From the sequence record MW929182: a DNA stretch of 58,790 nt; one strand, written 5' to 3'. This DNA is from Escherichia phage FS2B. The position numbers and the translations under genes were made by a program. Of this stretch, positions 1 through 18,900 are shown piece by piece. The notes below the pieces were generated by a model. That model made no database searches, was not told where the DNA came from, and was given only the letters and a program-made list of their open reading frames with translations. The first letter of the stretch is position 1. Each line of letters opens with the position of its first letter.

Positions 1-1
1 C

Positions 2-895
2 CACCCCTCCCACTGTGTGGAGAATACTGGGTGGGGATGTTACAGTACCTCGCCTGGAAGAGTTGGCGATTTGGCTCTAGGTGTTGAAAGAGGAGGCACT
101 GGAGCTAAAAATGCTGCTAGTGCTCGTTCTAATCTAGGGTTGGGAAGTGTTTCTACTCTGGATAATGTACCTATTGCTAATGGTGGGACAGGGGCTGGAG
201 ATGCTGCTGGTGCAAGGTTCAATATTGGAGCGCTAAGTAACACCCCAGCAAATTCAGGCGTAGGTGGTACTGGGGATCGTGTCCAACATGCCTCCGGGAA
301 CGGCCTGTTTACTTTAGACTTGTTTAACTGCTACTGGTATATGCAGCCAGAGGATACTAACTTCTGGATTGCCCACGGTGTGTCATATGCAGGGTCTGGT
401 GGCGAAGCCTCACAATACGGTCGCATATCTTACGCAATAAAGATTGCAGACGGAACAATAAAATATGTCCATTGTCTTACAAACAAAAACACCACTGTTG
501 ATGTAAACGGATTTATCAAAGCGGCATCTCCGGTAGTTCATATTTACTCCGACGGTCGATATGAGACGAACGAGGAATCTGAGGGGGTTAATGTCATTCG
601 GCAAGGTGTTGGTGAGTACTTGATTACCGGTTGCCTTGGCTTAAACGCAGATGCAAAATGGGGAGGCATTGACGGCGGCTTTGAAATCCCTACTGACCGC
701 AACAAACAACCTAGGGTTTGGCTGGACTATGAGATTAAAGAAGATGGTTCTATTTTAGTTAAAACCTATCACAGAACCCATCCAACCTCTCCGGTTTTTG
801 CTAGAAATGAGATAGAAGGTTTTTCTGACGGTGATCCTATTGATATCCCGAGTGATGCTTTTATTTCAGTTCGTGTTGAAATGCCTTCTGAGTAA
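2..895 (+). CDS. tail fibre protein, 5'-truncated by window edge
   Basis: Frame is open from the window start (track begins at internal GTG 17); Gly-rich repeats of the type NGGTGA..AAGAR.N.G as in phage tail-fibre repeat proteins. Confidence 0.5.
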   Translation, partial: HPSHCVENTGWGCYSTSPGRVGDLALGVERGGTGAKNAASARSNLGLGSVSTLDNVPIANGGTGAGDAAGARFNIGALSNTPANSGVGGTGDRVQHASGNGLFTLDLFNCYWYMQPEDTNFWIAHGVSYAGSGGEASQYGRISYAIKIADGTIKYVHCLTNKNTTVDVNGFIKAASPVVHIYSDGRYETNEESEGVNVIRQGVGEYLITGCLGLNADAKWGGIDGGFEIPTDRNKQPRVWLDYEIKEDGSILVKTYHRTHPTSPVFARNEIEGFSDGDPIDIPSDAFISVRVEMPSE

Positions 896-935
896 TTTAA
901 CAATGCTCCCTTCGGGGGGCTTTAAGGAGATTTAA

Positions 936-3128
936 ATGTCTAGAGAATTAATGCCCAAATCTGGTATAATGATGCCTCATGTGGTTGTAACCAGAGACGC
1001 GGCTGTTGTTGGGGTTTCTACTGTAGATGGACAGGCTGGAGCTATTAACCTCACCGGAAAATATTTACAGAAAACCGACGCAGCTGCTACCTATCAAACT
1101 AAAACAGAGGGTGCATCTAAAGATTTTGTGCTGGATTCGATTCAACCTATTATGTCTGGTGCGCTGTTCCGAGAAGACCCTTGGGTTGTTAATGATACCC
1201 CATTCCGTTCTACTGGAGCTAATGGTGTAGAATCAGTTGATATGATGAAAGTTACTACTGATAACTCAATCAAGATTGGTAGTTATGCCTCTTCAGTTCA
1301 AGGTGTAGAGATTCATTCTGCTGGTCGTCTTCAGGTTGTTGACCAGAATGACTCTGGGGTAGAAACTAAGTATCCAGTTTATTCTAAACGTTACCGTCCT
1401 GAGATTGAGGATTTGCCTTTTGCTGCAATTGGTTCTTATGTTAAAGACTCTAAAGGTCGTACGGTAGGTGTTACTCGTACAGGGATTAACTCTGATATCA
1501 AACAGCTCACACAGAAAGTTACTTTCACTCAACCAGTAACTGTCCCTGATGCAGTTGGTGATTATGATGCAGTCACTTTGAGACAGCTTCGAAACAGTGG
1601 TGGTGGCTCTGGTGGTCCTACGATGAGCGGTATCTCTAACTTTGGTATCGGTGATTTTCACTTACGGGATAGTCGAGCTTTCATCCCAGCTTTTGAAGTG
1701 TTTTCTGATGGTCAGCTTCTAAATCGTGCAGACTATCCAGACCTGTGGGCTTATGCACAGCTGTTATCTCCTATTGAAGACTCTTTGTGGCTAGAAGACC
1801 CTTATCAAAGAGGTAGATACTCTAAGGGTGATGGCACAACTACTTTCCGTGTTCCAGACCGAAATGGTATTCAGCCTAACTCCCTTCAGGCTCTTTATGG
1901 ACGAGGTGATGGTGGTGCTTCCGCAGCTAATGGTCAAGTATTTGATTCTGCGGCCCCAGACATTGTCGGCGCTGTTGCAGCATACTCTGCTGGAACTTAT
2001 GCCCAGCTTTTTGGAGTAGCTACCAATGCATTTTCATCTAGTAATGCCTTCTTTCCTGACGGTACAGGGGATACAATACCTCCGGGGTCTGGGCCAGTCG
2101 ATGGTCGATATAACACTGTTGAGTTTAAGGCTTCCAAATATAATGGAATTTATGGTCGCAGTAACACAGAGATTATGGGTCGTAACTTTGTTGGTGTGTG
2201 GACTATTCGCGCTAATGGTGGGTTTGTCGCTGCTAACACTTCTTGGAGTGTCATTAATAGCGATAGCGCAGCTCCGGCTCTAAATACTTCTGTGGTTGGT
2301 GGTAAGGTAGAATCTAAATATACTAACCCAACCTCTTCCCAATATGCTCGTATTTATGTTTCCTCTTCTTGGGGAAGTGTTTGCTCTGCCGTGATTGAAG
2401 CACAAGGTGCAAGTATTCACGCTTATAAGTTTTATGAGGATGGCACTGTTGATTTTAGGCAGTCTGGTAAGACAAACCCATTCCGCATGTACACACCAAC
2501 TGGAACTTGGACTGGACTGACGGATGCGGGGCCAAACAATTTAACCACCAATGGAATGGATAGGGTGGCGATTTCTAGTGGCTCTGACACAGTGGTGCGT
2601 GGGTACTCTATTGGAGGATCTAAACCTAATGGTTATCCAACCAAGGTTGGGTATCATATGTATTTGCCGGGAAGTGACGCCTTCGGTGTCGCCTGTACAA
2701 CTATTGGAGGAGACAACGGAAAGTTCTGTCGATATTTTTACGACATAGACGGGCAGATGTATGGCTCAACTGATTATGGAAACTTTAGCTATACAAAGAG
2801 TGGTGTCTCGGATGAAAACCTGAAACATAACATTGTTGATATTGATGCAGAAAGAGCTATTGAAGTAATAAAAGGACTGAAGTTCAAATCCTTTGTTTAC
2901 AACGATGATGAGAAGAATCGATCTCGTCGTGGTATCATTGCACAGCAGGCAGAGACGGTAGAACCTCTGTATGTCAAGACTCGCAAATACCCAGGAATGG
3001 AGAAAGGCTCTCCAGAAATTGAGCAGAAAGAGCTAGACACTACTCCAATGCTCCTTGACACTATGCAAGTAGTTCAAGACCTTCTGAAGCGTATTGAAGT
3101 TCTGGAATCGAAGTTAGCAGAGAAGTAA
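936..3128 (+). CDS. tail fibre/tailspike protein with C-terminal intramolecular chaperone (peptidase S74-like) domain
   Basis: ATG with AAGGAG RBS; C-terminal SDENLKHNI..(21 aa)..FVYNDDEKNRSRRGIIAQQAETVEPLYV resembles the endosialidase/tail-fibre chaperone domain. Confidence 0.65.
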   Translation: MSRELMPKSGIMMPHVVVTRDAAVVGVSTVDGQAGAINLTGKYLQKTDAAATYQTKTEGASKDFVLDSIQPIMSGALFREDPWVVNDTPFRSTGANGVESVDMMKVTTDNSIKIGSYASSVQGVEIHSAGRLQVVDQNDSGVETKYPVYSKRYRPEIEDLPFAAIGSYVKDSKGRTVGVTRTGINSDIKQLTQKVTFTQPVTVPDAVGDYDAVTLRQLRNSGGGSGGPTMSGISNFGIGDFHLRDSRAFIPAFEVFSDGQLLNRADYPDLWAYAQLLSPIEDSLWLEDPYQRGRYSKGDGTTTFRVPDRNGIQPNSLQALYGRGDGGASAANGQVFDSAAPDIVGAVAAYSAGTYAQLFGVATNAFSSSNAFFPDGTGDTIPPGSGPVDGRYNTVEFKASKYNGIYGRSNTEIMGRNFVGVWTIRANGGFVAANTSWSVINSDSAAPALNTSVVGGKVESKYTNPTSSQYARIYVSSSWGSVCSAVIEAQGASIHAYKFYEDGTVDFRQSGKTNPFRMYTPTGTWTGLTDAGPNNLTTNGMDRVAISSGSDTVVRGYSIGGSKPNGYPTKVGYHMYLPGSDAFGVACTTIGGDNGKFCRYFYDIDGQMYGSTDYGNFSYTKSGVSDENLKHNIVDIDAERAIEVIKGLKFKSFVYNDDEKNRSRRGIIAQQAETVEPLYVKTRKYPGMEKGSPEIEQKELDTTPMLLDTMQVVQDLLKRIEVLESKLAEK

Positions 3129-3132
3129 GATA

Positions 3133-3153
3133 AGCCCCTTCGGGGGCTTTAGT
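3133..3153 (+). terminator. putative intrinsic terminator after tail fibre gene
   Basis: GC hairpin AGCCCCTTCGGGGGCT followed by a short T-run directly after the stop codon. Confidence 0.4.
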
Positions 3154-3220
3154 AGTAAGTACCCTTAGTAAGTAATGAAACTAATATATCCCAAGAGGTT
3201 AATATATAGGAGACACTCAA

Positions 3221-8816: not shown

Positions 8817-9851
8817 ATGGCATATGGAATATGGACACGCCCGGTTGGTCCGGGTCCAGCGGCACCTGCTGATATTTACATCGATAGTGGTAGCACATTC
8901 CCTCAACTCAGAAATAGAGTCAGTGGGAATTTCTCTTTTAGTGGAAATACCTGTGACTTGCCTATAAGTGGTTGGGATGGTAGTGGTCAGATAGTTGTAG
9001 TTCCAACAGGGTCTGTTGTTTGGGAGAGATACATACCTCCTAACGTAACGTCTGATGTGTATTGGATAACGGATATATCTGTTATTAATAACTCAACCTT
9101 CAGAGTTACTATGGACTATAATGTAAACGGTTGGGTATTTGATATGGCTTTTAATGTGTATCAAATATGGCCTAGAGCTAACAGGAATTATGGAATCACA
9201 TTCTCCAACTCTGCTGACTATTTCTCAATATCCGATTCTGGGGTTGTTGGTCAATGTATTTGGGCTTGGGAGGGTGACATAAATGGTTCTCTTCAAATAC
9301 CAGATATTGGTGGTTTTGATATGAGCCGAGCAACTGTCTACGCGAATTGGAGTAACGGTGGAGCAGGGCTGCTATACAATCCATCCAATAGGGTTGTTTA
9401 TGTGTACCAGAACAGGTCTCATGATAATGGTAACACAAACCAAACAGGATACATTGGTGGTGTTAGAATTGCCGTCTTCTGTGATGGTTCTGGAGTACCA
9501 ACCCACAATGGTGGTTTAAATATCTTCTCTCCAAATGGGTCTCAGTGTGTATTTTCTACATATAGAACCCCTTTTAGTGTTGAGGGATTTATGCCTATGA
9601 GTGGCGGTAACACATCTCTGGCCTATCCAATGATACCACTATCTTACGGAGCAGGAGCAATAAGAGGCAAGGCTAGTGGTTGGTATTTTCAACACACAAG
9701 ATCTCACATGATGAATGGCTCTTCTTTCGGTACAGGTTTCGGAAGGATGATTTACTCTTGGAGTAGTCAATATGATTTAGGAGGGGGTGGTGCCCTCGGG
9801 TTAAGTATTCCAATATTAGATGCTAGAAAGATATTCAGGAGTATACAATAA
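8817..9851 (+). CDS. virion structural protein, function unknown
   Basis: Tightly coupled to the upstream gene; Gly/Ser/Asn-rich beta-type composition. Confidence 0.4.
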   Translation: MAYGIWTRPVGPGPAAPADIYIDSGSTFPQLRNRVSGNFSFSGNTCDLPISGWDGSGQIVVVPTGSVVWERYIPPNVTSDVYWITDISVINNSTFRVTMDYNVNGWVFDMAFNVYQIWPRANRNYGITFSNSADYFSISDSGVVGQCIWAWEGDINGSLQIPDIGGFDMSRATVYANWSNGGAGLLYNPSNRVVYVYQNRSHDNGNTNQTGYIGGVRIAVFCDGSGVPTHNGGLNIFSPNGSQCVFSTYRTPFSVEGFMPMSGGNTSLAYPMIPLSYGAGAIRGKASGWYFQHTRSHMMNGSSFGTGFGRMIYSWSSQYDLGGGGALGLSIPILDARKIFRSIQ

Positions 9852-9860
9852 GGAGATATT

Positions 9861-10643
9861 ATGGCAATCAGAATGGGTATCGAAGAACTAGACCCAATGG
9901 TACAGCAAGCTTCAAAGAAGTATGGGATTCCTGCTGCTTTGATTCATGCTGTCATCCAAAGAGAGTCCAGTGGTCGTCCTACAGTGGCCTCTGGAACTGG
10001 TCCTGTAGGTTTAATGCAGATCAGTAAAGGGTTGGCTAAAGATTACGGTTACAAACTAGAAGATAGACTTGACCCAGCAAAGAATATTGATATGGGCGCT
10101 CGTTACATAAGAGATAACTTAAAAGCTTTTAATGGTGATGTTAAGAAAGCAATGGTTGGTTATTCAGAAGGTATCGGTGGAGCTAAGCAAATGTTCGCTG
10201 GTAAAAAGGGGTTTACTCCACAAGCTCTTGACTCCATGAACAATAAACACTTTCTTCCTTTCTATGGTGATGCAGCTTCTCAGATTGCTAACCCTGTTGG
10301 AGCTTTGCAAGCTGTTCAACCAGTCAATCAGTTTAGTCCTGACTTGTTAGATAGAGAGAAGGCCGCACAAGCTCCAACTCAGGCAGAGATTGCTGCTTCT
10401 AAGACAGGTGCTTTAGGTGGAAATCCAGTAGAGTTTTACTCTGATGAAGTGCAGGAAGGCGAAAATCAGAAACCTCAACAGAACTTTGGTAATGCAGTAT
10501 TAGGGGTAGCTGCTATGCTTGCTGGTAAACCTCCCACTTCTCAAACAGTTCAGAGGGCAAGTGCACCACATGCAGCAGGTTCTCAGTACAGTCCACAAAC
10601 ACAAGCAGTGCTCAGACGTCTGGCTAGCATTGGTGTAAAGTAA
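9861..10643 (+). CDS. lytic transglycosylase (SLT domain), probably virion-associated
   Basis: AAGGAG RBS; motif AVIQRESSGRP...GLMQIS characteristic of soluble lytic transglycosylases. Confidence 0.7.
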   Translation: MAIRMGIEELDPMVQQASKKYGIPAALIHAVIQRESSGRPTVASGTGPVGLMQISKGLAKDYGYKLEDRLDPAKNIDMGARYIRDNLKAFNGDVKKAMVGYSEGIGGAKQMFAGKKGFTPQALDSMNNKHFLPFYGDAASQIANPVGALQAVQPVNQFSPDLLDREKAAQAPTQAEIAASKTGALGGNPVEFYSDEVQEGENQKPQQNFGNAVLGVAAMLAGKPPTSQTVQRASAPHAAGSQYSPQTQAVLRRLASIGVK

Positions 10644-10662: not shown

Positions 10663-11715
10663 ATGTCTTTATTTGGAAAATCAGCTTCTAGCAAAACCAC
10701 AGTGGCCCCTTCCTCTCAGGTTGATGCCCTGCTGAAGCAGATTGTTGCTAATGCTCAGAATATGCAGAACAACGATCCGGGATTCATCTCCCAACAACTG
10801 GCTGGGTTTAATGGCAACCAACAGGGTGCTCTGAACAACTTAGCAGCTTCTACTACTCAGAAGCAATTGGCTGATATGTACACGCCTCGTACACAGCAAG
10901 GGTTGGACCAATTAAACTCTCTTGCACAGCAGTATCAGAATATTGTCAATGGTGGTGGTCTAACTGCTGATGGTGTTAATAACTTTAGTAAAGGATTGAA
11001 TAACTCAGCTCTTGCTCAAGCGACTAGTAAGGCAGCTTCCAATGTATCCCTCGGAAATGGTTCTGATTCAGGCTCTCTCCGTAGAGCTGCTGCTCAAGGT
11101 GCTGCTCTGAACAGTGCTAATACAAACTTAGCTCGTACTATCAGTGGCAAGAATATGGGAATCAGTGCTCTTCAACAAGACCAAAACTTCCAGAGGGGCT
11201 TACTTGGTGCTCAGTCAGGATTGGCTGGACAGAATCTCAATCTTGGTGCTCAAGGTGTTCAGGCAACTCAACAAGCTATCCAGAATCAACTCATGGCTGG
11301 TAATCTACAACAGCAACAAGCCCAAGCTCAAGCTGATATTAATTGGCAGAACGCTATTGGCTCTCAACAGTATGGGTGGAATCAGCTTAACAACCAACTT
11401 AATGTATTAAATAGTGTAAGCCCAATGGCTGGGTACACGATTAAGAATGCTGCTCCGGGGGTTAATACTGGACAACAGCTCCTAGGTGCTGGTATCACTG
11501 GATTAGGTATTGCAGGTCGTATGGGTGCTTTCTCTCCTAATCAACAGACTCAGAATGCTTGGAGTTCCTATAACAACTCAGGTGGGCAATCTGGAATGGC
11601 TGGTCCTATGATTGGTGGTTCTAATCTTTCTCAACAGAAAGGTCAGTCTAACTGGTTATCCACAGCAGGTAGTAATATCTTAGGTGGTGTCTTAGGGGCA
11701 TTTGGAGCAAACTAA
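10663..11715 (+). CDS. Gln/Asn/Gly-rich virion protein (putative internal/ejection protein)
   Basis: AAGGAGG RBS; low-complexity Q/N/G/A-rich sequence; paralogous to the next gene. Confidence 0.45.
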   Translation: MSLFGKSASSKTTVAPSSQVDALLKQIVANAQNMQNNDPGFISQQLAGFNGNQQGALNNLAASTTQKQLADMYTPRTQQGLDQLNSLAQQYQNIVNGGGLTADGVNNFSKGLNNSALAQATSKAASNVSLGNGSDSGSLRRAAAQGAALNSANTNLARTISGKNMGISALQQDQNFQRGLLGAQSGLAGQNLNLGAQGVQATQQAIQNQLMAGNLQQQQAQAQADINWQNAIGSQQYGWNQLNNQLNVLNSVSPMAGYTIKNAAPGVNTGQQLLGAGITGLGIAGRMGAFSPNQQTQNAWSSYNNSGGQSGMAGPMIGGSNLSQQKGQSNWLSTAGSNILGGVLGAFGAN

Positions 11716-11727
11716 AGGAGATTTGAT

Positions 11728-12696
11728 ATGGGACTTTTCGGAGGCGGGGGTAGTAAAACTACTTCCCAAATGATTCGCCCTGAATACATTCAACAGTATA
11801 TTGACCAGCTTAACCAACAGATTGGTAATACTAGTTCAGGGGATTATGTTTATCGTGACAATGTAGGGTTTAATAACAATCAGACAGAGGCACTTAACAA
11901 CCTAGCACAATCTGGCGCTCTAGGTACTCTCTCACAGCAGTATATGGATGCAGCAGGTCAAGGCTTGGGTTATCTAGATAATGCCTATAAAGGTTATCAG
12001 AGCCTCTCTGGACAAGGTGGGATTACTGGAGAGCAGATTGGTGCTCTCGCTGGTCAACTGTATGATGATGACGCTGTGCAAGCAGCCATTACAGCTAATA
12101 ATGAACAGGTTCAACAGAACTTGGCACGTAATGCTCTTCCTCAGTTAGCTCAACAGTTTGCTGGTCAACAAGGTTCAGGTGCTCGTATGGCTAAGTCTTT
12201 TGCCCAAGGTGATGCTCTGAATCAGATGCAAGGCCAAGCAACAGATATTACCAATAGTGCCTATAACTCGGCTATTAGCCAAGCTGAAAGCATCCTCTCT
12301 GGTAATAGACAGAATCAGGCAGCTGCTCTCTCTGGTCTTTCTAATATTGGTTCTAACCTTTCTAACCTAGGTCAGCAGGGTGCTAATTTGTCTCAACAGC
12401 AAATAATGAATCAATGGAATGCAGGGTTGCAGCAACAACAGCAACAACAGAATGAATATGATAATGCCTACCAGAATGCTCAGAACGCAGCTAATTGGGG
12501 ATGGCAAGATATCAATAACCAACTCGGTGCAGCAGGTGTACTTAACGGTGCTCTCGGACAAACTACAACTACTAAAACATCTGGTGGCAAAGGTGGTTTC
12601 CTTGGTGGAGCTATGAGTGGTGCAGCAGCTGGCTCTTCTTTTGGGCCTTGGGGTGCATTAGCTGGGGGTGTAATCGGTGGGTTGGCTAGTACTTAA
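11728..12696 (+). CDS. Gln/Asn/Gly-rich virion protein, paralog of 10663..11715
   Basis: Shared N-terminus M(S/G)LFG..SKTT and GFN.NQ..ALNNLA motif; poly-Q run. Confidence 0.45.
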   Translation: MGLFGGGGSKTTSQMIRPEYIQQYIDQLNQQIGNTSSGDYVYRDNVGFNNNQTEALNNLAQSGALGTLSQQYMDAAGQGLGYLDNAYKGYQSLSGQGGITGEQIGALAGQLYDDDAVQAAITANNEQVQQNLARNALPQLAQQFAGQQGSGARMAKSFAQGDALNQMQGQATDITNSAYNSAISQAESILSGNRQNQAAALSGLSNIGSNLSNLGQQGANLSQQQIMNQWNAGLQQQQQQQNEYDNAYQNAQNAANWGWQDINNQLGAAGVLNGALGQTTTTKTSGGKGGFLGGAMSGAAAGSSFGPWGALAGGVIGGLAST

Positions 12697-12709
12697 TTAG
12701 GAGATAAAT

Positions 12710-14365
12710 ATGCAACAGACAACTTACGCTCAGGTCAGAAGTCGTGACCCGAGAAATACTTTCTATGGTGTTAATCCGGGAGCGGCTTCGGCCTCTCCTT
12801 ATATGGCTAGACCAACTCAGACAGCAGATATTTCTATGTATCAACGTCCTGCTGTACCTTCATCTCTTGCGGGTCTTGTCTCTCAGGCAGAAGAAGATCA
12901 GACTGCTATGGTTAATCCGGGATTCCAGCAACGTCTTATGGAACAGCAGAATCAAGGAACTCCTACAAGTCTTCAAGGTATTGATATTGGAGCACCGGCC
13001 CCTGTAGCGTCTAACCCTAACCTATCCACTGATCAAGGTTTACAGGATGCTGGGCTTATGCCTAGTGACCCTCTTCCGGTAACACCTCCTACTAAACCGT
13101 TAGAAGCTGGTCCTATGGAGTTTACTCCTTCTCAGGTGGAACAGGCACAAGGTGTGATTAATACTCTTGCTCAAGGACAAGATACTGGTGATGGAATGGC
13201 TGCTGCTACTCGTGCTAAAGATCAGGAACGTGTTAACAATGATATCTTGCAAGTTGCGAAAGCTAAAGACCCTTCGGAAGCTTGGAACAAGCTACAGAAA
13301 GAACCATTCTATCAGAACTCTAGTTTCTACACAGGTTTGATGGGTGTAGGTCTTTCCATTATGTCAGGTAAGTCTCCTATTGAAGCTTTCCAGATTGGTC
13401 AGGGAATGGCTAATCAAGATGAGACTAAGAAGCAACTGGAAGCTAACCGTGATGCTCTGATTGAACAAGGCTTCTCTCAAGACTCGATTGCAGCTGCTAT
13501 TGCTAACGGAGACCCATCTCTACTGAAGATGAGAGCTGTAGACCCTGCTCAGAAAGAAGCGTTGTATGCTGCTCGTGAAGAACGACAAAATGCTGAATGG
13601 GATAGACGTCAACAGATTCAAGAGCAAACTATGCGTGAGCGTGCTGATGAAACTCGTCGTGCCGCTGAAGAAAGAGCTAACATGAACTTTGAACGTCAGA
13701 AAGAGTTGATTGGTTATCGTGATAAGGTTAAGGCTGAACGTGCTGAACAAGCTGCTCAGAGTTTTAACTTTAACCCGAAAGAAGTTCGTCTTGCTCAGAA
13801 TACAGCTGAAGGTACGGTTGCTAAGCAGTGGGCAGAGAAAGGTGGCCTGTTTAACCAGTCTAACAAAGACTTGGATTTGGCTGATAAGGCTGTTAAGGAT
13901 AAAGACTATCAGACAGCTCGTTCTGCTTACATGCAGGCTATCATGAACTCCGCAAGGGCTGAAATCGGTGCTACTCGTTCTCTTACCGAAGAAGACTTGG
14001 GGCACTTTGCAGAAGACCCATCAATCTTCGTTCGTGTTGGCAACAAGTTTGCACTGAAATCTGGATGGCGTCCTACTGATTCTGCTCTTGCTTATGCTCG
14101 TAAGCAAGCTAACGTTGGTCACACCTCTGCAATGAAAGGTGTTGCTGATGCTAAGAGAGCTACGATTGAAGCTTACATCGGTTCTGGTATGGATAAGAAG
14201 AGAGCTACTGCATTGGTTAACCGTGCAATCCCTTCTGGTGGTTTCTATGACCCTCTAGGTGTTTTCTCTGAACAAGCAGAAGAAGCAGTTGGTGGTGCAG
14301 CAACCAATCCTAAGCTTAATGGTGCTTTATCAGCTGTCGAAGACACTAGCTGGTTTACTCAATAA
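12710..14365 (+). CDS. putative internal virion/ejection protein
   Basis: AGGAGA RBS; Pro/Gln-rich N-terminus and charged helical C-terminus; located in the ejection-protein-like block. Confidence 0.4.
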   Translation: MQQTTYAQVRSRDPRNTFYGVNPGAASASPYMARPTQTADISMYQRPAVPSSLAGLVSQAEEDQTAMVNPGFQQRLMEQQNQGTPTSLQGIDIGAPAPVASNPNLSTDQGLQDAGLMPSDPLPVTPPTKPLEAGPMEFTPSQVEQAQGVINTLAQGQDTGDGMAAATRAKDQERVNNDILQVAKAKDPSEAWNKLQKEPFYQNSSFYTGLMGVGLSIMSGKSPIEAFQIGQGMANQDETKKQLEANRDALIEQGFSQDSIAAAIANGDPSLLKMRAVDPAQKEALYAAREERQNAEWDRRQQIQEQTMRERADETRRAAEERANMNFERQKELIGYRDKVKAERAEQAAQSFNFNPKEVRLAQNTAEGTVAKQWAEKGGLFNQSNKDLDLADKAVKDKDYQTARSAYMQAIMNSARAEIGATRSLTEEDLGHFAEDPSIFVRVGNKFALKSGWRPTDSALAYARKQANVGHTSAMKGVADAKRATIEAYIGSGMDKKRATALVNRAIPSGGFYDPLGVFSEQAEEAVGGAATNPKLNGALSAVEDTSWFTQ

Positions 14366-14432
14366 GACCTAAGTCCTGCCTTCTATAATGTATATAGGGG
14401 GTAGGACATTTTTATTTATAAAAGGAGACGTT

Positions 14433-17400
14433 ATGGCTAACATTAAACCGTGGGAAGAAGCTTCCAAAGCTCCTGCGTATCTGAATGCCTCTCCGGAGCA
14501 ACAAGCTCAAATGAGAGAACAATATAAGGCAGCAGGTGGCTCTATTCCTGAGGAACAGCCAGTAGCACAACCACAACAAGAAGAACGTGGTGTTATAGGT
14601 GAGTTTGCTCAAGGTGTGTCAAATGCTCTTCAATCTGGTGGTGCAAATATTGCAGCTAGTGCTGCTAAAGGTATTGGTGGTTTAGTTGAGATTGGTGAGA
14701 ATCTAGCTGGAGCACAGACTAGTTATGGTAAGCGTATCCAAGAGAACTCTCAGAACCTTCTGAAAGAACGTATGGATAAGATTGAGGATGGGATTGGTAA
14801 AACTGTCGGTCAGTATGCTGGCGTTGCTGGTGATATTGGTATGACTGTTGCTAACCCATTGGCTGCTGCTGCTATCATCGCAGGTCGTGAGACAGGTCGT
14901 GCATATGCAGACCAAACCCCTGAAGAGGGAGAAGATAAGTCTATTCTAGATGCAGCCTTAGTTGGTGGTGCTAACTATGCGGCTCAGAGAATCCTTCCGG
15001 GTGCTGTCGGTACAGCTGAATCCACACTTGGACGTATTGGTCAGAACGTTGCTAGTAACGCAGTGGCTGGTGCTAAAGGCGGTGCTCTTGTGGGTGCTGC
15101 TGAAGCTCAGAATAAGCACGGAGATGACACAACCTTTGCTAATGTATTAGAAGGTGCTATCGAAGAAGGTGCTATGGGTGCTGCATTCGGTGGTGCAGTT
15201 GGTGGGGTTCATGGTTTGATTAGCCGTCCGGATTCTGCTGTCTTCAAGAATACTCCAGAGTATGCGAAGACTGATATTGCTGCTGATGATGAACTAATTC
15301 GTAGTGCTAAGAATATTGATGAACTGAAAGAAGCTTACTCTAAAGCTGAAACTGCTAACGCTGCTTCTGCTCTTAACCTTCTGGATGAGAATGGATTCCG
15401 TATTACAGATGCTGTTGCTGTAGATTCTCCTGCTGCTCAGCGTATTCTTAATACTGACCAAGCTCGTGCTGAGAAAGCTGCTTCTGTTCAGAAAGAACAT
15501 TCCAACATTCCGGGCCTTAATCCTTTAGCTTCTCCTGCTAAGACTCGTGGTAAAGCATTTGCTGATAATGAGCACAACCAGAAGCAGGCTGTTGCTATGA
15601 AGGATGCAATGGCTGACTACACCAAAGACAACACGAAAGCTCTTACAGATGTTCTAGATAATCTAGACCGTGAATTAACTTCTCTCCGAGCTTCTGGTGA
15701 TTTTACTGGTAGTCCGATTGATATTAAGAACCGTACACAAGCTGACCGTGACTTCATTGATGCTTACAAGACTTTCTACAATGAAGCAAATCGATTCAAA
15801 GCTCGTGATGGTGAAGATTTTAATAACTTTGTAGAGAAAGCTGCTGAACTACAGAAGATGGCTGATAATGTTTCTCCAGAGATGAAGAAAGCTATCGGTG
15901 GGTTGAAGAAACTGAAAGGTATGCCTGAAGGTTTTAATCCTATCCAAGATGCTTACACTCTGAACAATACGGCTAAGTTTATGAGTAACCAAGATCGTGG
16001 TTGGACTTCCCTGACTGATGATGGATTCCGTGAGGCTTCTTCACCTAGTCTGGTAATGAACACTCTCGGTGCTGCTAAGTATGCTCTGAATCGATTCTCT
16101 TCTCAGCGTGCTCGCTCTCAACGTGTTAAGCAACAAGAATCTAACAGCGAAGCTATCCGCTCTCTTGCTCGTGGTGATTTGGAAGTTGCTCGTGCTAAAT
16201 CTACTGCTGATGAAGCTCGTGCTAAGATGGAAGAAGAACCAGTTGTTGATGACATTAAATTTAAGACGCAAAATGACGTGGAAACCGAACCGGTTCGGGA
16301 GCCTTCTTCTAGTACTGTGACGGAAGAAAATCTTCCTTCTTCTACTCCTCAAGAAACCCCTCTCACAGCTCGTGATTTAGTTGCGCAAAGACGCGCTATC
16401 CGTCAGGCTGAACAGCGTCGCGCTGAAGAAGAGGCAGCAGCAGCTCAAGAAGCTCCGGTCGAACAAGCTCCACAGGCTGAACCTCTCCCTGCTCGTAACC
16501 CTCTAGAGGAGCGTCGTGCAATGGAACAGCAACGTGCTCAAGAAGAGGCCGCACAGGCTCCAGAACCAACCGTAGAGGAACCAACAGTCAAAGCTGAGCC
16601 ATTACCTGCTCGTGCTCCTAAAGCTCCTAAGGAAGCTGTACAGGACGTTAAACCGGCAAGTGGTGTAGAACGTTTAGCTGCTATGTCTAGTGCTGCTCGT
16701 CAGGCTACTAAAGATCGTGCAGAACGCTTTGCTCGTTCTCTGTACTCTAAGGCTGCTAAAGCTAAAGCTACTGCTGAAAACTTCTTGGCTTATAAAGGCG
16801 ATCCTAAGGAACTGATGCGTCGTATTCGTCAGGAAGATAATGCTATCAACACTGAACGTCATGAAGAAATGGCTCGTAACCAGCTGGCCTCTCAGCAAGG
16901 TATTGCTACTGCTAAGAACAACACTGTACGAACTAATTTTGCTGAATGGGTTAAAGAACGTGGTCTGCCAGAAGACATTGCTACTAAGGCATTACGTGCT
17001 GAAGAGAAAGGTTTAGGTGGGAACGTAACTAACTTGGATAGTCTGAAACGTCGTGCTGAAAGGTTGTATCAGAAGCAGCGTGAGGATGAGTTTGATAGGC
17101 TGTACCAACAGGCTCTAGAAGAGAACAAAGCTTTCGATAATAAGAATTCTCCTAAACTGGTTGACCAGAAGAAAGAGCTTCAGTCTGAGATTGATGCTTT
17201 GATTGATTCAGAACCTTTACGTCCTGCTCAGAAAGATGCTATGCGTAAGCTGATGAATGACTTTGTAGATGGGAAGTTTAAATCTTCAGAGAAGGCTGGT
17301 AGGGAAGAGGCTTTGGAAGTTGGTCAGATGAAGGATATTTGGGATGGATTTATTAACACCTACAACAGAGAAGTGAATGCCTTCAACAAAGCTAACAAGA

Positions 17401-18854
17401 ACTCTCAGTACGAAGCTGCTGCTAAGCATTTACAGGCTCGTGAAGAACGTCTTGCTACTCTGAAAAACAAAGCTCAGGCTCGTTCAGATGCTAAGGCTGC
17501 TGTTGAGAATGAACGTAAAACTCTAGAGGCTATTGCAGCTCAGAAGAGTGAGATTGAGAAGATGATGGAAGGTTTACCTAAACCTGTTCGTGAGGCTCAG
17601 GAATCTCGTACATTGAAACAGTTGGCTGCTCACCATGACAAGAACTCTCCAGTTCCTCCAGAGAAGTTCCGTAGTTATATTGAACGTATCCACAACGCCG
17701 AGTCAGATTACCTTGATCGTCAGCGTCGTTTAACTGATGCAGAGGAAGATGCTCGTCAGGCCAAGTGGAACAAGATGTACGAGCAAGCGGAAGAGATGAA
17801 CCGTAAGTTTGATGTGGACAAGAGAGTTAAGCGCAGTGAAGAGCTTAAAGCGGCCCAAGAGCGTGAGAATGATCTTATGGCAGTACAACGTCAACGTGAT
17901 GACATTCATCGCCGCCTGATGCGTACTATGGAAGATAAGGGCATATCTAGAGAGGATGCTGAAGCATTTGCTGGTTCCTATATGGATAACCGTTATGCAC
18001 TTCTTGAGAAGCCTATGACTCCTACTGAACATCAGAATGCTCGTTCTCGTATCGAAGCTGATGTTGAGAAGTTTGCTAAGAAGTACGAATCAATGACTCC
18101 TATCGAGAAAGAGATTGTTAAGGTTACTGGAGATACTGAAGGTAAGCTTGATAACTTGGATGCGGATACTAGGAAGGCTATTGAGGAGGCTCAGAAGGTT
18201 GACTCTGATATTAAGAAACTGCAAGAGGAAGAATTGGAGATGGAGAAGATTCGTTCTGCTCTGCCTGATGATGAAAAATCTCAAGCAAATTCTGATATCT
18301 TGGAAAGCATTAAACAACAGGAAGAGGTCTTTGCTGATAAAGTAGAGAAAGCTTTCTTGAGTGGGAAGAGCTTGGATGAGTTGGCTAGTGTGGCTGAAGT
18401 TTTAGACAGGGTTCATGGTGCAGATAAGGCTGGTAACAACCGTCGCTTTGTACGTGCATTGCAGACTGCTGCTGAAAACAAGAAGAAGTATGGTGATAAT
18501 CCAGTAGCTTGGTTTAGTGCTGATGATTACTCTGCCATTGCTAAACTTGGTGCTTCTTCCGCAGGTGGTAACAAATCCAGAGCACTGGAGAAGATCTTTG
18601 GTTCTACAGCTGAACAGGCTAAGAGTAAGTTGCTTGGTAGGGATGATGTAGCGAAGATGAGACGTGTGATTGAAGAGAACCCTGATATTAAGATTCCTTC
18701 TTACAAGACAACGAATCGTACTGAGTACTTGCAGTTCTTGGAGAAGTTTAATGACGAAGGGAAGCCTAAGATTAAACGTGGCTCATTGTCAGAGAAGCTT
18801 GAACGCAGTAAGCGTCAATCGAGACTCCGTGTAAGAGTTCGACCTAAGGAGTGA
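14433..18854 (+). CDS. large (1473 aa) putative internal virion/ejection protein
   Basis: ATG 14433 with AAGGAG RBS; N-terminal Gly/Ala-rich hydrophobic segments then a long Lys/Glu/Ala/Arg-rich helical region with the internal repeat AEPLPAR(N/A)P. Confidence 0.5.
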   Translation: MANIKPWEEASKAPAYLNASPEQQAQMREQYKAAGGSIPEEQPVAQPQQEERGVIGEFAQGVSNALQSGGANIAASAAKGIGGLVEIGENLAGAQTSYGKRIQENSQNLLKERMDKIEDGIGKTVGQYAGVAGDIGMTVANPLAAAAIIAGRETGRAYADQTPEEGEDKSILDAALVGGANYAAQRILPGAVGTAESTLGRIGQNVASNAVAGAKGGALVGAAEAQNKHGDDTTFANVLEGAIEEGAMGAAFGGAVGGVHGLISRPDSAVFKNTPEYAKTDIAADDELIRSAKNIDELKEAYSKAETANAASALNLLDENGFRITDAVAVDSPAAQRILNTDQARAEKAASVQKEHSNIPGLNPLASPAKTRGKAFADNEHNQKQAVAMKDAMADYTKDNTKALTDVLDNLDRELTSLRASGDFTGSPIDIKNRTQADRDFIDAYKTFYNEANRFKARDGEDFNNFVEKAAELQKMADNVSPEMKKAIGGLKKLKGMPEGFNPIQDAYTLNNTAKFMSNQDRGWTSLTDDGFREASSPSLVMNTLGAAKYALNRFSSQRARSQRVKQQESNSEAIRSLARGDLEVARAKSTADEARAKMEEEPVVDDIKFKTQNDVETEPVREPSSSTVTEENLPSSTPQETPLTARDLVAQRRAIRQAEQRRAEEEAAAAQEAPVEQAPQAEPLPARNPLEERRAMEQQRAQEEAAQAPEPTVEEPTVKAEPLPARAPKAPKEAVQDVKPASGVERLAAMSSAARQATKDRAERFARSLYSKAAKAKATAENFLAYKGDPKELMRRIRQEDNAINTERHEEMARNQLASQQGIATAKNNTVRTNFAEWVKERGLPEDIATKALRAEEKGLGGNVTNLDSLKRRAERLYQKQREDEFDRLYQQALEENKAFDNKNSPKLVDQKKELQSEIDALIDSEPLRPAQKDAMRKLMNDFVDGKFKSSEKAGREEALEVGQMKDIWDGFINTYNREVNAFNKANKNSQYEAAAKHLQAREERLATLKNKAQARSDAKAAVENERKTLEAIAAQKSEIEKMMEGLPKPVREAQESRTLKQLAAHHDKNSPVPPEKFRSYIERIHNAESDYLDRQRRLTDAEEDARQAKWNKMYEQAEEMNRKFDVDKRVKRSEELKAAQERENDLMAVQRQRDDIHRRLMRTMEDKGISREDAEAFAGSYMDNRYALLEKPMTPTEHQNARSRIEADVEKFAKKYESMTPIEKEIVKVTGDTEGKLDNLDADTRKAIEEAQKVDSDIKKLQEEELEMEKIRSALPDDEKSQANSDILESIKQQEEVFADKVEKAFLSGKSLDELASVAEVLDRVHGADKAGNNRRFVRALQTAAENKKKYGDNPVAWFSADDYSAIAKLGASSAGGNKSRALEKIFGSTAEQAKSKLLGRDDVAKMRRVIEENPDIKIPSYKTTNRTEYLQFLEKFNDEGKPKIKRGSLSEKLERSKRQSRLRVRVRPKE

Positions 18855-18859
18855 TAAAA

Positions 18860-18900
18860 GAAAAGCCCCCAACCGAAAGGAAGGGGGCTTTATTTGTTTC
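18860..18900. terminator. bidirectional intrinsic terminator at the convergence of the two arms
   Basis: Hairpin AAAGCCCCC..GGGGGCTTT flanked by an A-run on one side and a T-run on the other, between the last plus-strand gene and the last minus-strand genes. Confidence 0.6.

What the first reader, a model, noticed from the sequence alone, without database searches (positions are those of the whole stretch)
10663..18854. Block of Gln/Asn-rich paralogs and a 1473-aa helical protein resembling an ejection-protein module
Two paralogous Q/N/G-rich proteins sharing an N-terminal M(S/G)LFG..SKTT motif, a 551-aa protein, and a 1473-aa protein with Gly/Ala-rich hydrophobic segments and a long charged helical region carrying the internal repeat AEPLPAR(N/A)P follow the SLT transglycosylase. 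The arrangement resembles internal-core or ejection proteins of podoviruses, but the prion-like Q/N composition of the paralogs is unusual.
Basis: inference. Interest (0 to 1): 0.35.

Follow-up and report, generated by a model that had tools for sequence, protein, structure and literature searches.

The report
Kuravirus DNA-ejection protein gene block
These four genes, plus the cell-wall-cutting enzyme gene just upstream, encode proteins that a phiEco32-like E. coli phage stores in its head and expels to help its DNA cross the cell envelope; this was shown experimentally for near-identical proteins of phage SU10, so the finding is correct but already known.

Summary
The window is Escherichia phage FS2B, a phiEco32-like Kuravirus. 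The four ORFs (350, 322, 551 and 1473 aa) are 95-100% identical to SU10 gp21-24 and phiEco32 gp23-26. The SLT protein just upstream (9861-10643) is the gp20 ortholog and belongs to the same module.

For SU10, published mass spectrometry shows gp20-24 in virions and absent from particles that have released their genome.

The Q/N-rich paralogs belong to a large podophage family (phrog_4287, 'DNA ejection protein'; 382 representatives at 50% clustering). Members share an N-terminal MGLFGG...T-rich motif, a Q/N-rich helical core and a C-terminal glycine zipper. P22 gp7 has the same build and a similar tail, although membership of its family could not be shown.

The 551-aa and 1473-aa proteins occur only in long-headed podophage lineages and have no detectable relative in the PDB. 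Which protein does which job in the channel is inference.

Verdict: real, correctly interpreted, already known, low interest.

The parts
9861..10643 (+). SLT lytic transglycosylase (260 aa). It is the first of the five ejected proteins and the ortholog of SU10 gp20 / phiEco32 gp22.
   Evidence: Pfam SLT E 1.2e-23. 34% identity to the N-terminal transglycosylase domain of T7 gp16, E 4e-14. phrog_342 'internal virion protein with endolysin domain', 1e-24. 253/260 identical to phiEco32 gp22. SU10 gp20 is lost on genome release.
10663..11715 (+). Q/N-rich paralog A (350 aa), ortholog of SU10 gp21 / phiEco32 gp23. It has the N-terminal MSLFG..SKTT motif, a Q/N-rich core and a longer, degenerate Gly-rich tail.
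   Evidence: 97% identical to SU10 gp21. phrog_4287 'DNA ejection protein', 1.4e-117. Q+N 26.6%. In SU10 virions by MS (53% coverage).
11728..12696 (+). Q/N-rich paralog B (322 aa), ortholog of SU10 gp22 / phiEco32 gp24. It has the MGLFGGGGSKTTS motif, a Q/N-rich core, a TTTTKTSGG stretch and the C-terminal glycine zipper LGGAMSGAAAGSSFGPWGALAGGVIGGLAST.
   Evidence: 319/322 identical to phiEco32 gp24. phrog_4287, 3.5e-109. Family alignment A1. Profile search found 382 family representatives. hhalign of the Gly-zipper against P22 gp7 gave 86.6% probability.
12710..14365 (+). 551-aa ejection protein, ortholog of SU10 gp23 / phiEco32 gp25. The N-terminal ~135 aa are predicted disordered and Pro-rich; the rest is helical. 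The most conserved part is a Gly-rich hydrophobic segment at residues ~199-232 (FYQNSSFYTGLMGVGLSIMSGKSPIEAFQIG).
   Evidence: 95% identical to SU10 gp23. phrog_12130. Invariant columns cluster at residues 199-230. AlphaFold mean pLDDT 64, helical over residues 140-520. No PDB fold match. BFVD matches are limited to orthologs in Kuravirus, Grimontviridae, Aeromonas and Vibrio podophages.
14373..14407 (+). Terminator-like hairpin (15 pairs followed by ATTTTTATTT) between the 551-aa and 1473-aa genes. It contains the upstream in-frame ATG at 14388.
   Evidence: AAGGAG lies 5 nt upstream of the ATG at 14433, which is the start annotated in phiEco32 and SU10.
14433..18854 (+). 1473-aa ejection protein, ortholog of SU10 gp24 / phiEco32 gp26. 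It has a conserved Gly/Ala-rich N-terminal domain (~residues 40-520), a Pro-rich duplicated linker (~601-745), and a long charged, probably helical region that varies in length between lineages.
   Evidence: 1453/1473 identical to phiEco32 gp26; 98.4% to SU10 gp24. The most abundantly detected of these proteins in SU10 virions (116 peptides, 73% coverage). Remote colinear orthologs in Grimontviridae and in the element L007.
16410..16613 (+). Duplicated unit of about 39 aa that carries AEPLPAR(N/A)P, inside the Pro/Glu/Ala-rich linker of the 1473-aa protein.
   Evidence: Direct repeats D6 and D10, 74-81% nucleotide identity, spacing 114-117 nt. Residues 682 and 721. Two copies in 114 of 120 close homologs.
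18864..18900 (.). GC-rich hairpin (GCCCCC...GGGGGC) with A/T runs on both sides. It is probably a bidirectional intrinsic terminator that closes the late operon against the convergent minus-strand genes.
   Evidence: Sequence read. Minus-strand terminator-like site 18883-18866. SU10 annotates a terminator at the equivalent place.

Best explanation
This is the ejection-protein (internal virion protein) module of a phiEco32-like Kuravirus, and it comprises five late genes: SLT, A350, B322, C551 and D1473. The proteins are packaged in the prolate head together with the DNA. After the tail nozzle forms and the tail needle falls off, they leave through the tail channel ahead of or together with the DNA. 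The SLT protein cuts peptidoglycan, and the others assemble a conduit across the periplasm and membranes.

Shown for near-identical orthologs: the proteins are in the virion and are lost when the genome is released.

Inferred here from size, gene order, composition and weak similarities: the two Q/N-rich paralogs are the small gp7/gp14-type components, and their C-terminal glycine zippers insert into a membrane to form the proximal pore, probably as a hetero-oligomer since both copies have been kept since an old duplication. The 551-aa protein is the middle-sized tunnel component, with one conserved Gly-rich hydrophobic helix. The 1473-aa protein is the large gp16-type component that reaches the inner membrane and cytoplasm; its transglycosylase domain, which is fused in T7 gp16, is encoded here as a separate gene.
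For: Orthology: 96.6-99% nucleotide identity to 70 of 98 Kuravirus records. Gene lengths and order are identical to phiEco32 gp22-26 and SU10 gp20-24. Protein identity is 95-100%.

Experiment, from the literature: SU10 gp20-24 are present in virions and absent from genome-release intermediates, which also lack the needle gp18 (PMC9509320). LC-MS/MS of purified SU10 detected all five (PMC4281155).

SLT: homologous to the transglycosylase domain of T7 gp16 (E 4e-14).

Paralogs: both fall in phrog_4287 'DNA ejection protein', as do all 109 distant members tested. They share architecture with P22 gp7, and hhalign gives 86.6% probability on the Gly-zipper.

Gene position: the block follows the tail needle and ends the late operon, as in P22.

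Conservation: the whole SLT-A-B-C-D block is conserved at 27-43% identity in a divergent relative, and each paralog matches its own counterpart best.
Against: No experiment has been done on this phage itself. The role of each protein is not supported by detectable homology. C551 and D1473 show no significant similarity to P22 gp20/gp16 or T7 gp15/gp16, nor to any PDB sequence or fold. The paralog family does not reach phrog_598 (P22 gp7) at HMMER sensitivity. There is no classical transmembrane segment in any of the proteins. [quoted passage not shown] No trans-envelope channel made of these proteins has been imaged; the SU10 authors call it a 'putative extension'.
Confidence: 0.88

Rival explanations
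1. The proteins, especially the 1473-aa one, act mainly as an internal core or length-determining scaffold for assembling the unusually long prolate head. On this view their release at infection is incidental.
For: The SU10 supplement calls them 'putative core proteins'. The charged helical middle of the D-type protein varies in length between lineages (1113 to 1529 aa), while its ends are conserved. Every lineage found here with a D-type protein is one of these phiEco32-/7-11-like podophages, which are described as long-headed (C3 morphotype) where morphology was reported.
Against: SU10 has a dedicated scaffolding protein, gp8. No ordered core density is resolved in the virion. D-ortholog length does not scale with genome size: 1306 aa at 75.1 kb, 1336 at 76.5, 1473 at 77.5, 1385 at 86.3, 1529 at 90.2 and 1446 at 102.9 kb. 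The proteins leave the capsid on genome release, as ejection proteins do.
Confidence: 0.08
2. The Q/N-rich paralogs are genuine prion-like or amyloid-forming proteins, and self-templated aggregation is their working mechanism.
For: Each has a 60-aa stretch with 47-50% Q+N and only 1-3 charged residues. AlphaFold gives no confident fold (mean pLDDT 36.8). Phage entry proteins are enriched in PLAAC-predicted prion-like domains (PMC5694896).
Against: Specific residues are conserved across the family, not only composition (Q52, G79, L201, Q241, N250 and others). The region is predicted as long helices rather than as disordered or beta structure. The enrichment grades down to 6.5% Q+N in the lowest of the 150 family representatives examined, so high Q/N content is not required for the family's function. 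No assay of aggregation exists.
Confidence: 0.05
3. The 1473-aa protein is an injected effector that acts in the cytoplasm, for example against host defence in the way P1 DarB does, and is not a structural part of the DNA conduit.
For: It is large, abundant in virions and ejected. It is highly charged and has no transmembrane segment. One ortholog, in Salmonella phage SE131, is annotated 'DarB-like antirestriction'.
Against: No enzymatic or other Pfam domain is detectable. The annotation names given to orthologs (TolA, liver stage antigen, erythrocyte binding protein, nuclear pore complex) look like artefacts of composition. It occupies the position of the last and largest ejection gene, as gp16 does in T7 and P22. 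Its Grimontviridae orthologs share a short N-terminal motif with P22 gp16 (E 0.003 and 0.011).
Confidence: 0.07

Closest known systems
Ejection proteins gp20-24 of Escherichia phage SU10 (Kuravirus), equal to phiEco32 gp22-26
   Same: Direct orthologs. The gene order and lengths are the same (260/350/322/551/1473 aa) and the proteins are 95-100% identical. They were shown to be in virions and released with the genome.
   Different: Nothing of substance. The deposited annotation of this phage starts the large gene 15 codons too early.
P22 ejection proteins gp7, gp20 and gp16 (Lederbergvirus; also Sf6, CUS-3, HK620, epsilon15)
   Same: The genes follow the tail-needle gene at the end of the structural operon and run from small to large. 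P22 gp7 is Q/N/G/A-rich (Q+N 17.9%) and ends in a glycine zipper around 'PWGA', very like paralog B. The D-type proteins of Grimontviridae share the extreme N-terminal motif NG.T.NFPDGT with P22 gp16.
   Different: The PHROG families are separate (598/917/770 against 4287/12130/14629). There is no full-length homology at HMMER sensitivity. The small component is duplicated here. The large component is 2.4 times longer than P22 gp16. A free-standing SLT protein is ejected here.
T7 internal core / ejectosome proteins gp14, gp15 and gp16 (Autographiviridae)
   Same: The logic is the same: a small outer-membrane component, a middle tunnel component, and a large inner-membrane component with transglycosylase activity (PMC8954989). 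The SLT protein is homologous to the N-terminal domain of T7 gp16.
   Different: No similarity outside the SLT domain. The SLT activity is a separate polypeptide here. No ordered core stack is resolved on the SU10 portal. There are five proteins rather than three.
PLAAC-predicted prion-like domains in phage entry proteins (Tetz and Tetz 2017)
   Same: Q/N-rich stretches with few charged residues, in proteins involved in penetration or injection, with Podoviridae the most enriched of the three large tailed-phage families.
   Different: That survey is purely compositional. No prion behaviour has been shown for any ejection protein, and this family has conserved residues and predicted helices.

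Membership tests
Kuravirus ejection-protein module (SU10 gp20-24 / phiEco32 gp22-26) | Orthologous sequence for each of the five proteins | tested here: met
   253/260, 349/350, 319/322, 528/551 and 1453/1473 residues identical to phiEco32. 97% to SU10 gp21, 95% to gp23 and 98.4% to gp24.
Kuravirus ejection-protein module (SU10 gp20-24 / phiEco32 gp22-26) | Same gene order at the end of the late operon, after the nozzle and needle genes | tested here: met
   A terminator follows the last gene.
Kuravirus ejection-protein module (SU10 gp20-24 / phiEco32 gp22-26) | Present in virions and lost on genome release | not testable with these tools
   Shown for SU10 orthologs in the literature, not for this isolate.
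phrog_4287 'DNA ejection protein' family (the two paralogs) | Full-length match to the family profile | tested here: met
   E 1.4e-117 and 3.5e-109, covering nearly the whole of each protein (residues 1-350 of 350 and 1-310 of 322). All 109 distant relatives found with our own profile also match it.
P22 gp7-type small ejection protein (phrog_598) | Detectable sequence homology to P22 gp7 | tested here: inconclusive
   No phrog_598 hit for the paralogs or for 109 relatives. The HMMER score is cancelled by composition bias. hhalign gives 86.6% probability, but only over the 34-column Gly-zipper, and 53.9% over residues 55-98. Composition-corrected BLASTP links gp7 to one family member over 150 aa, with E 2e-4 in a 137-sequence database.
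P22 gp7-type small ejection protein (phrog_598) | Architecture: Q/N/G/A-rich helical body with a C-terminal glycine zipper around a PWGA core | tested here: met
P22 gp20 / T7 gp15-type tunnel protein (for the 551-aa protein) | Sequence or fold similarity | tested here: not met
   hhalign probability 1.1% against P22 gp20 and 0.2% against T7 gp15. Foldseek against the PDB found nothing below E 0.1.
T7 gp16 / P22 gp16-type large ejection protein (for the 1473-aa protein) | Sequence similarity outside the transglycosylase domain | tested here: not met
   BLASTP E 0.88 against T7 gp16. The N-terminal-domain profile gives 2-3% hhalign probability. Only the Grimontviridae orthologs, not D1473 itself, share an 18-residue N-terminal motif with P22 gp16.
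T7 gp16 N-terminal lytic transglycosylase (for the upstream SLT protein) | SLT-domain homology | tested here: met
   34% identity over 116 aa, E 4e-14. Pfam SLT 1.2e-23.
Prion-like (Q/N-rich) domain proteins | A stretch of at least ~60 residues dominated by Q/N with few charged residues | tested here: met
   47% and 50% Q+N over 60 aa, with 1 and 3 charged residues. PLAAC itself was not run.
Prion-like (Q/N-rich) domain proteins | Self-propagating aggregation | not testable with these tools
   No assay is available. Predicted helices and conserved residues argue against it.

The most novel reading that the evidence does not exclude
The two anciently duplicated Q/N-rich paralogs might form an obligate hetero-oligomeric pore. 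In this reading the Q/N-rich helices act as polar zippers, so the proteins could pass through the narrow tail channel unfolded and then assemble quickly and without energy input outside the capsid, anchored by their glycine zippers. That would be an ejectosome design distinct from the T7 gp14 pore and a functional use of prion-like composition. The evidence does not exclude it: both paralogs are kept as separate orthologous lineages in a relative only 39-43% identical, no fold could be predicted, and no structure of any member exists.
Probability: 0.1. Interest if true: 0.5.

Novelty: already known. Interest (0 to 1): 0.13.

Why it matters
It matters little as a discovery. The function was established for SU10 in 2022, and two of the four genes are already annotated 'DNA ejection protein' in the phiEco32 and SU10 RefSeq records and a few other GenBank records (most records call them hypothetical proteins).

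What remains open is structural. No atomic model exists for any Kuravirus ejection protein or for any member of the widespread phrog_4287 family. How a five-protein set, including a duplicated Q/N-rich component and a 1473-aa charged helical protein, extends the 28-nm nozzle across the envelope is unknown. Kuraviruses are candidates for phage therapy, so their entry mechanism has some applied interest.

Two by-products of this work are useful for annotation. The large gene of this phage should start at 14433 rather than 14388. The names attached to its orthologs ('TolA', 'nuclear pore complex', 'liver stage antigen' and similar) are artefacts of composition.

Tried and rejected
1. Single-sequence and profile searches of PDB sequences with A350, C551, D1473 and the alignments A1, A2 and A4 found nothing meaningful. 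The polyubiquitin 'hits' to the C551 profile are sums of nine sub-threshold repeats of about 3 bits each, so they are an artefact.

2. Pfam found nothing for any of the four proteins.

3. A HMMER profile built from 137 family members gave P22 gp7 a score of 2.1 bits with 68.7 bits of bias, so it was uninformative.

4. hhalign of the paralog family against P22 gp20 and T7 gp14 gave no relation. hhalign of C551 against P22 gp20, P22 gp16 and T7 gp15 gave none either. The N-terminal domain of D against P22 gp16 and T7 gp16 gave 2-3% probability.

5. The AlphaFold model of B322 has mean pLDDT 36.8, so no fold search was run on it. The C551 model (mean pLDDT 64) has no PDB fold match.

6. The idea that D1473 acts as a head-length ruler was dropped, because ortholog length does not track genome size.

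7. A protein-database search with D1473 returned only relatives at least 96% identical among the 120 listed, so it gave no useful diversity.

8. I tested whether the divergent element in an E. coli assembly is a common prophage. It has no megablast match in 5,426 complete E. coli genomes or in 50,697 phage records.

9. The 2008 phiEco32 proteomics paper (PMC2587145) is not held in the library.
Full report
OBSERVATION. Four consecutive + strand ORFs encode proteins of 350, 322, 551 and 1473 aa (1488 aa from the first ATG). They follow a 260-aa protein at 9861-10643 that has a clear SLT domain (Pfam E 1.2e-23). The two small proteins are paralogs: BLASTP with composition adjustment gives 31% identity over 275 aa and E 2e-12. 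Both begin M(S/G)LFG...SKTT. Their Q+N content is 26.6% and 25.2%, about three standard deviations above the window's ORFs (mean 10.4%, sd 4.7, n = 31). Each has a 60-aa stretch with 47-50% Q+N and almost no charged residues.

In the large protein the first ~300 residues are 31-33% Gly+Ala, with one weakly hydrophobic stretch and no classical transmembrane helix. The rest is 27-45% charged. AEPLPAR occurs at residues 682 and 721. It is the core of a duplicated unit of about 39 aa that is visible in the DNA, and 114 of 120 close homologs keep both copies.

WHAT THE WINDOW IS. The region is 96.6-99% identical in DNA to dozens of phiEco32-like Escherichia and Shigella phages of the genus Kuravirus. 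The window itself is Escherichia phage FS2B. Gene order and lengths match phiEco32 gp22-26 and SU10 gp20-24 exactly. Protein identities are 253/260, 349/350, 319/322, 528/551 and 1453/1473 to phiEco32, and 97%, 95% and 98.4% to SU10 gp21, gp23 and gp24. RefSeq already labels the two paralogs 'DNA ejection protein'.

EXPERIMENTAL EVIDENCE ALREADY PUBLISHED. For SU10, LC-MS/MS of purified particles detected gp20, gp21, gp22, gp23 and gp24, with 39.6, 53.4, 49.1, 52.1 and 73.2% coverage (116 peptides for gp24) (PMC4281155). [quoted passage not shown] Its supplementary SDS-PAGE/MS figure shows that emptied particles lack gp20-24 and the tail needle gp18. The authors propose that after the nozzle forms and the needle is lost, the five proteins leave the head, gp20 degrades peptidoglycan, and the others extend the nozzle into a channel across the periplasm. 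They saw no resolved density for these proteins inside the head. A later genomic survey of Kuravirus-like phages repeats this assignment (PMC9965538).

THE Q/N-RICH PARALOGS. Both fall in phrog_4287 'DNA ejection protein'. A profile built from 21 homologs and scored against 1.84 billion representative proteins found 382 family members at E <= 1e-3 and 77 at E <= 1e-10, mostly 300-430 aa long. All 109 distant members tested also match phrog_4287. Isolated phages carrying distant members include Sinorhizobium phiM5, Ochrobactrum OH, Caulobacter Kuura and Methylophilales Venkman.

The family shares three features: an N-terminal MG(L)FGGG motif followed by a Ser/Thr-rich stretch, a Q/N-rich core, and a C-terminal glycine zipper of the type LGGAMSGAAAGSxFGPWGAxAGGxIGG. 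Mean Q+N over 150 representatives is 18.6% (range 6.5-27.4%). The Kuravirus copies are therefore the extreme of a trend that runs through the family.

P22 gp7 is classed in a review as the gp14-like outer-membrane component (PMC8954989). It has the same build: Q+N 17.9%, G+A+S 39.7%, and a tail '...GASGAIAGAGLAKLIGSSTPWGAAIGGGIGLLGSLF'. hhalign of the broad family against gp7 gives 86.6% probability, but only over the 34-column zipper. HMMER sees nothing once composition bias is removed, and no family member reaches gp7's PHROG, phrog_598. I conclude that the paralogs work like gp7-type proteins, while membership of the gp7 family is unproven. AlphaFold predicts long helices followed by a disordered Gly-rich tail, at very low confidence (mean pLDDT 36.8). 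That is in keeping with the conformational plasticity described for ejection proteins (PMC8954989) but tells us nothing about the fold. A PLAAC survey had already found prion-like domains concentrated in phage attachment, penetration and injection proteins, and among the three large tailed-phage families most frequent in Podoviridae (PMC5694896).

THE 551-AA PROTEIN. Its homologs are limited to Kuravirus-like phages and their relatives. The invariant positions cluster in a Gly-rich hydrophobic segment, residues 199-232, and this is also the part that aligns with the 553-aa syntenic protein of Cronobacter phage A24 (E 1e-4). The AlphaFold model is moderately confident (mean pLDDT 64; 70-90 over most of residues 140-520). 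It is all-helical, with a disordered, Pro-rich N-terminal ~135 residues. Foldseek found no PDB match (best E 0.13). In BFVD it found only orthologs in Kuravirus, Cronobacter GAP52, Proteus Privateer ('virion-associated protein'), Aeromonas and Vibrio podophages. There is no similarity to P22 gp20, P22 gp16 or T7 gp15.

THE 1473-AA PROTEIN. By tblastn with the full-length protein, relatives at least 80% identical occur only in Kuravirus-like phages. More distant orthologs can be recognised by their position and by colinear similarity of the Gly/Ala-rich N-terminal domain and a short C-terminal piece. They occur in Cronobacter A24 (1306 aa; E 7e-5 and 0.022), in Proteus, Salmonella and Aeromonas phages of Grimontviridae and in Lahexavirus, and in a divergent element described below (1113 aa; E 4e-27). 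The charged middle varies in length and sequence. Neither the protein nor a profile of its N-terminal domain matches any PDB sequence, T7 gp16 or P22 gp16. The only hint of a link is an 18-residue motif at the extreme N-terminus of the A24 and P59 orthologs, which matches the N-terminus of P22 gp16 (pairwise E 0.003 and 0.011). The Kuravirus protein does not keep this motif. The names attached to orthologs (TolA, liver stage antigen, erythrocyte binding protein, nuclear pore complex, DarB-like) reflect composition and not homology. No Pfam domain is present.

CONSERVATION OF THE BLOCK. An E. coli assembly (GCA_023211535.1) carries, next to SU10-type capsid and portal genes, the same five-gene series: SLT 291 aa, then 334, 322, 498 and 1113 aa. 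These proteins are 30%, 39%, 43%, 27% and 29% identical to the window's proteins, and each paralog matches its own counterpart best. The duplication is therefore older than this divergence, and both copies have been retained, which suggests they are not redundant. Grimontviridae have a single ~410-aa family member in place of the pair.

MECHANISM. Shown for orthologs: the proteins are packaged in the head and released with the genome. Shown here: the SLT protein is homologous to the transglycosylase domain that T7 carries at the N-terminus of gp16 (E 4e-14), so that activity is a separate polypeptide in this lineage. Inferred from size order, gene order, composition and the weak similarities above: the paralogs are the small, membrane-proximal pore components, anchored by their glycine zippers. 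The 551-aa protein is the tunnel component. The 1473-aa protein is the large distal component that reaches the inner membrane and cytoplasm. I put about 0.9 on the module being ejection proteins and about 0.35 on this particular division of labour.

RIVALS. A head-core or ruler role for the large protein is not supported, because ortholog length does not track genome size and a dedicated scaffolding gene exists. A true prion mechanism is unsupported, given the conserved residues and predicted helices. An injected-effector role for the large protein cannot be excluded, but the protein has no recognisable domain.

VERDICT. The feature is real and was correctly interpreted, and it is already known from work on SU10 and phiEco32. 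What remains open is the structure and stoichiometry of the Kuravirus ejectosome.

Noticed in passing
window 14373-14433: A strong terminator-like hairpin (15 pairs followed by ATTTTTATTT) sits between the 551-aa and 1473-aa genes. The upstream in-frame ATG at 14388, which the deposited FS2B annotation uses (1488 aa), lies inside this hairpin. The ATG at 14433 has an AAGGAG 5 nt upstream and is the start used in phiEco32 and SU10. So 14388 is probably a mis-called start, and the hairpin may attenuate expression of the large gene.
   Followed up: partly
L007 900-15900 (E. coli assembly GCA_023211535.1, contig DAHCAP010000002.1, 389,554 bp); also L008: A divergent Kuravirus-like structural block: SU10-type capsid, terminase and portal genes, then SLT and proteins of 334, 322, 498 and 1113 aa, which are 27-43% identical to the window's proteins. 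It lies in the middle of a 389-kb bacterial contig. It has no megablast match in 5,426 complete E. coli genomes or in 50,697 phage records. It could be a prophage, or an uncultured lineage related to phages that are regarded as strictly lytic, or an assembly chimera.
   Followed up: partly
window 8817-9851 (+): A 344-aa ORF lies between the tail-needle gene and the SLT gene. It is the ortholog of SU10 gp19, falls in phrog_1265 'membrane protein', and is listed as not detected in SU10 virions. It occupies the same position as P22 gene 14, a non-virion gene annotated 'head morphogenesis' that lies between the needle gene and the ejection genes. No sequence similarity between the two was seen.
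   Followed up: partly
L009 6842-11842 (Salmonella phage 7-11): The ortholog of the 1473-aa protein is annotated as three separate CDS (gp024 650 aa, gp026 488 aa, gp027 408 aa) with a tiny ORF between the first two. The first and last pieces match the N- and C-terminal parts of the A24 ortholog in the same reading frame. The gene may be interrupted, or the record may contain errors.
   Followed up: partly
window 1-3200: The window (the whole 58,790-base FS2B record) begins inside the ortholog of the phiEco32 gp14 tail-fibre gene. It therefore lacks roughly the first 11.6 kb of the phiEco32 map (terminase, portal, scaffold and capsid genes). Relatives are 75-79 kb, so the record looks incomplete.
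   Followed up: partly
window 18864-18900: A GC-rich hairpin with A/T runs on both sides lies between the end of the late + strand operon and the convergent - strand genes. It is probably a bidirectional terminator and matches one annotated in SU10.
   Followed up: partly
window 13520-14005 (-): A 161-aa antisense ORF lies inside the 551-aa gene. It is Leu/Ser/Phe-rich and is not annotated in the phiEco32 or SU10 RefSeq records examined, so it is probably not a gene.
   Followed up: no
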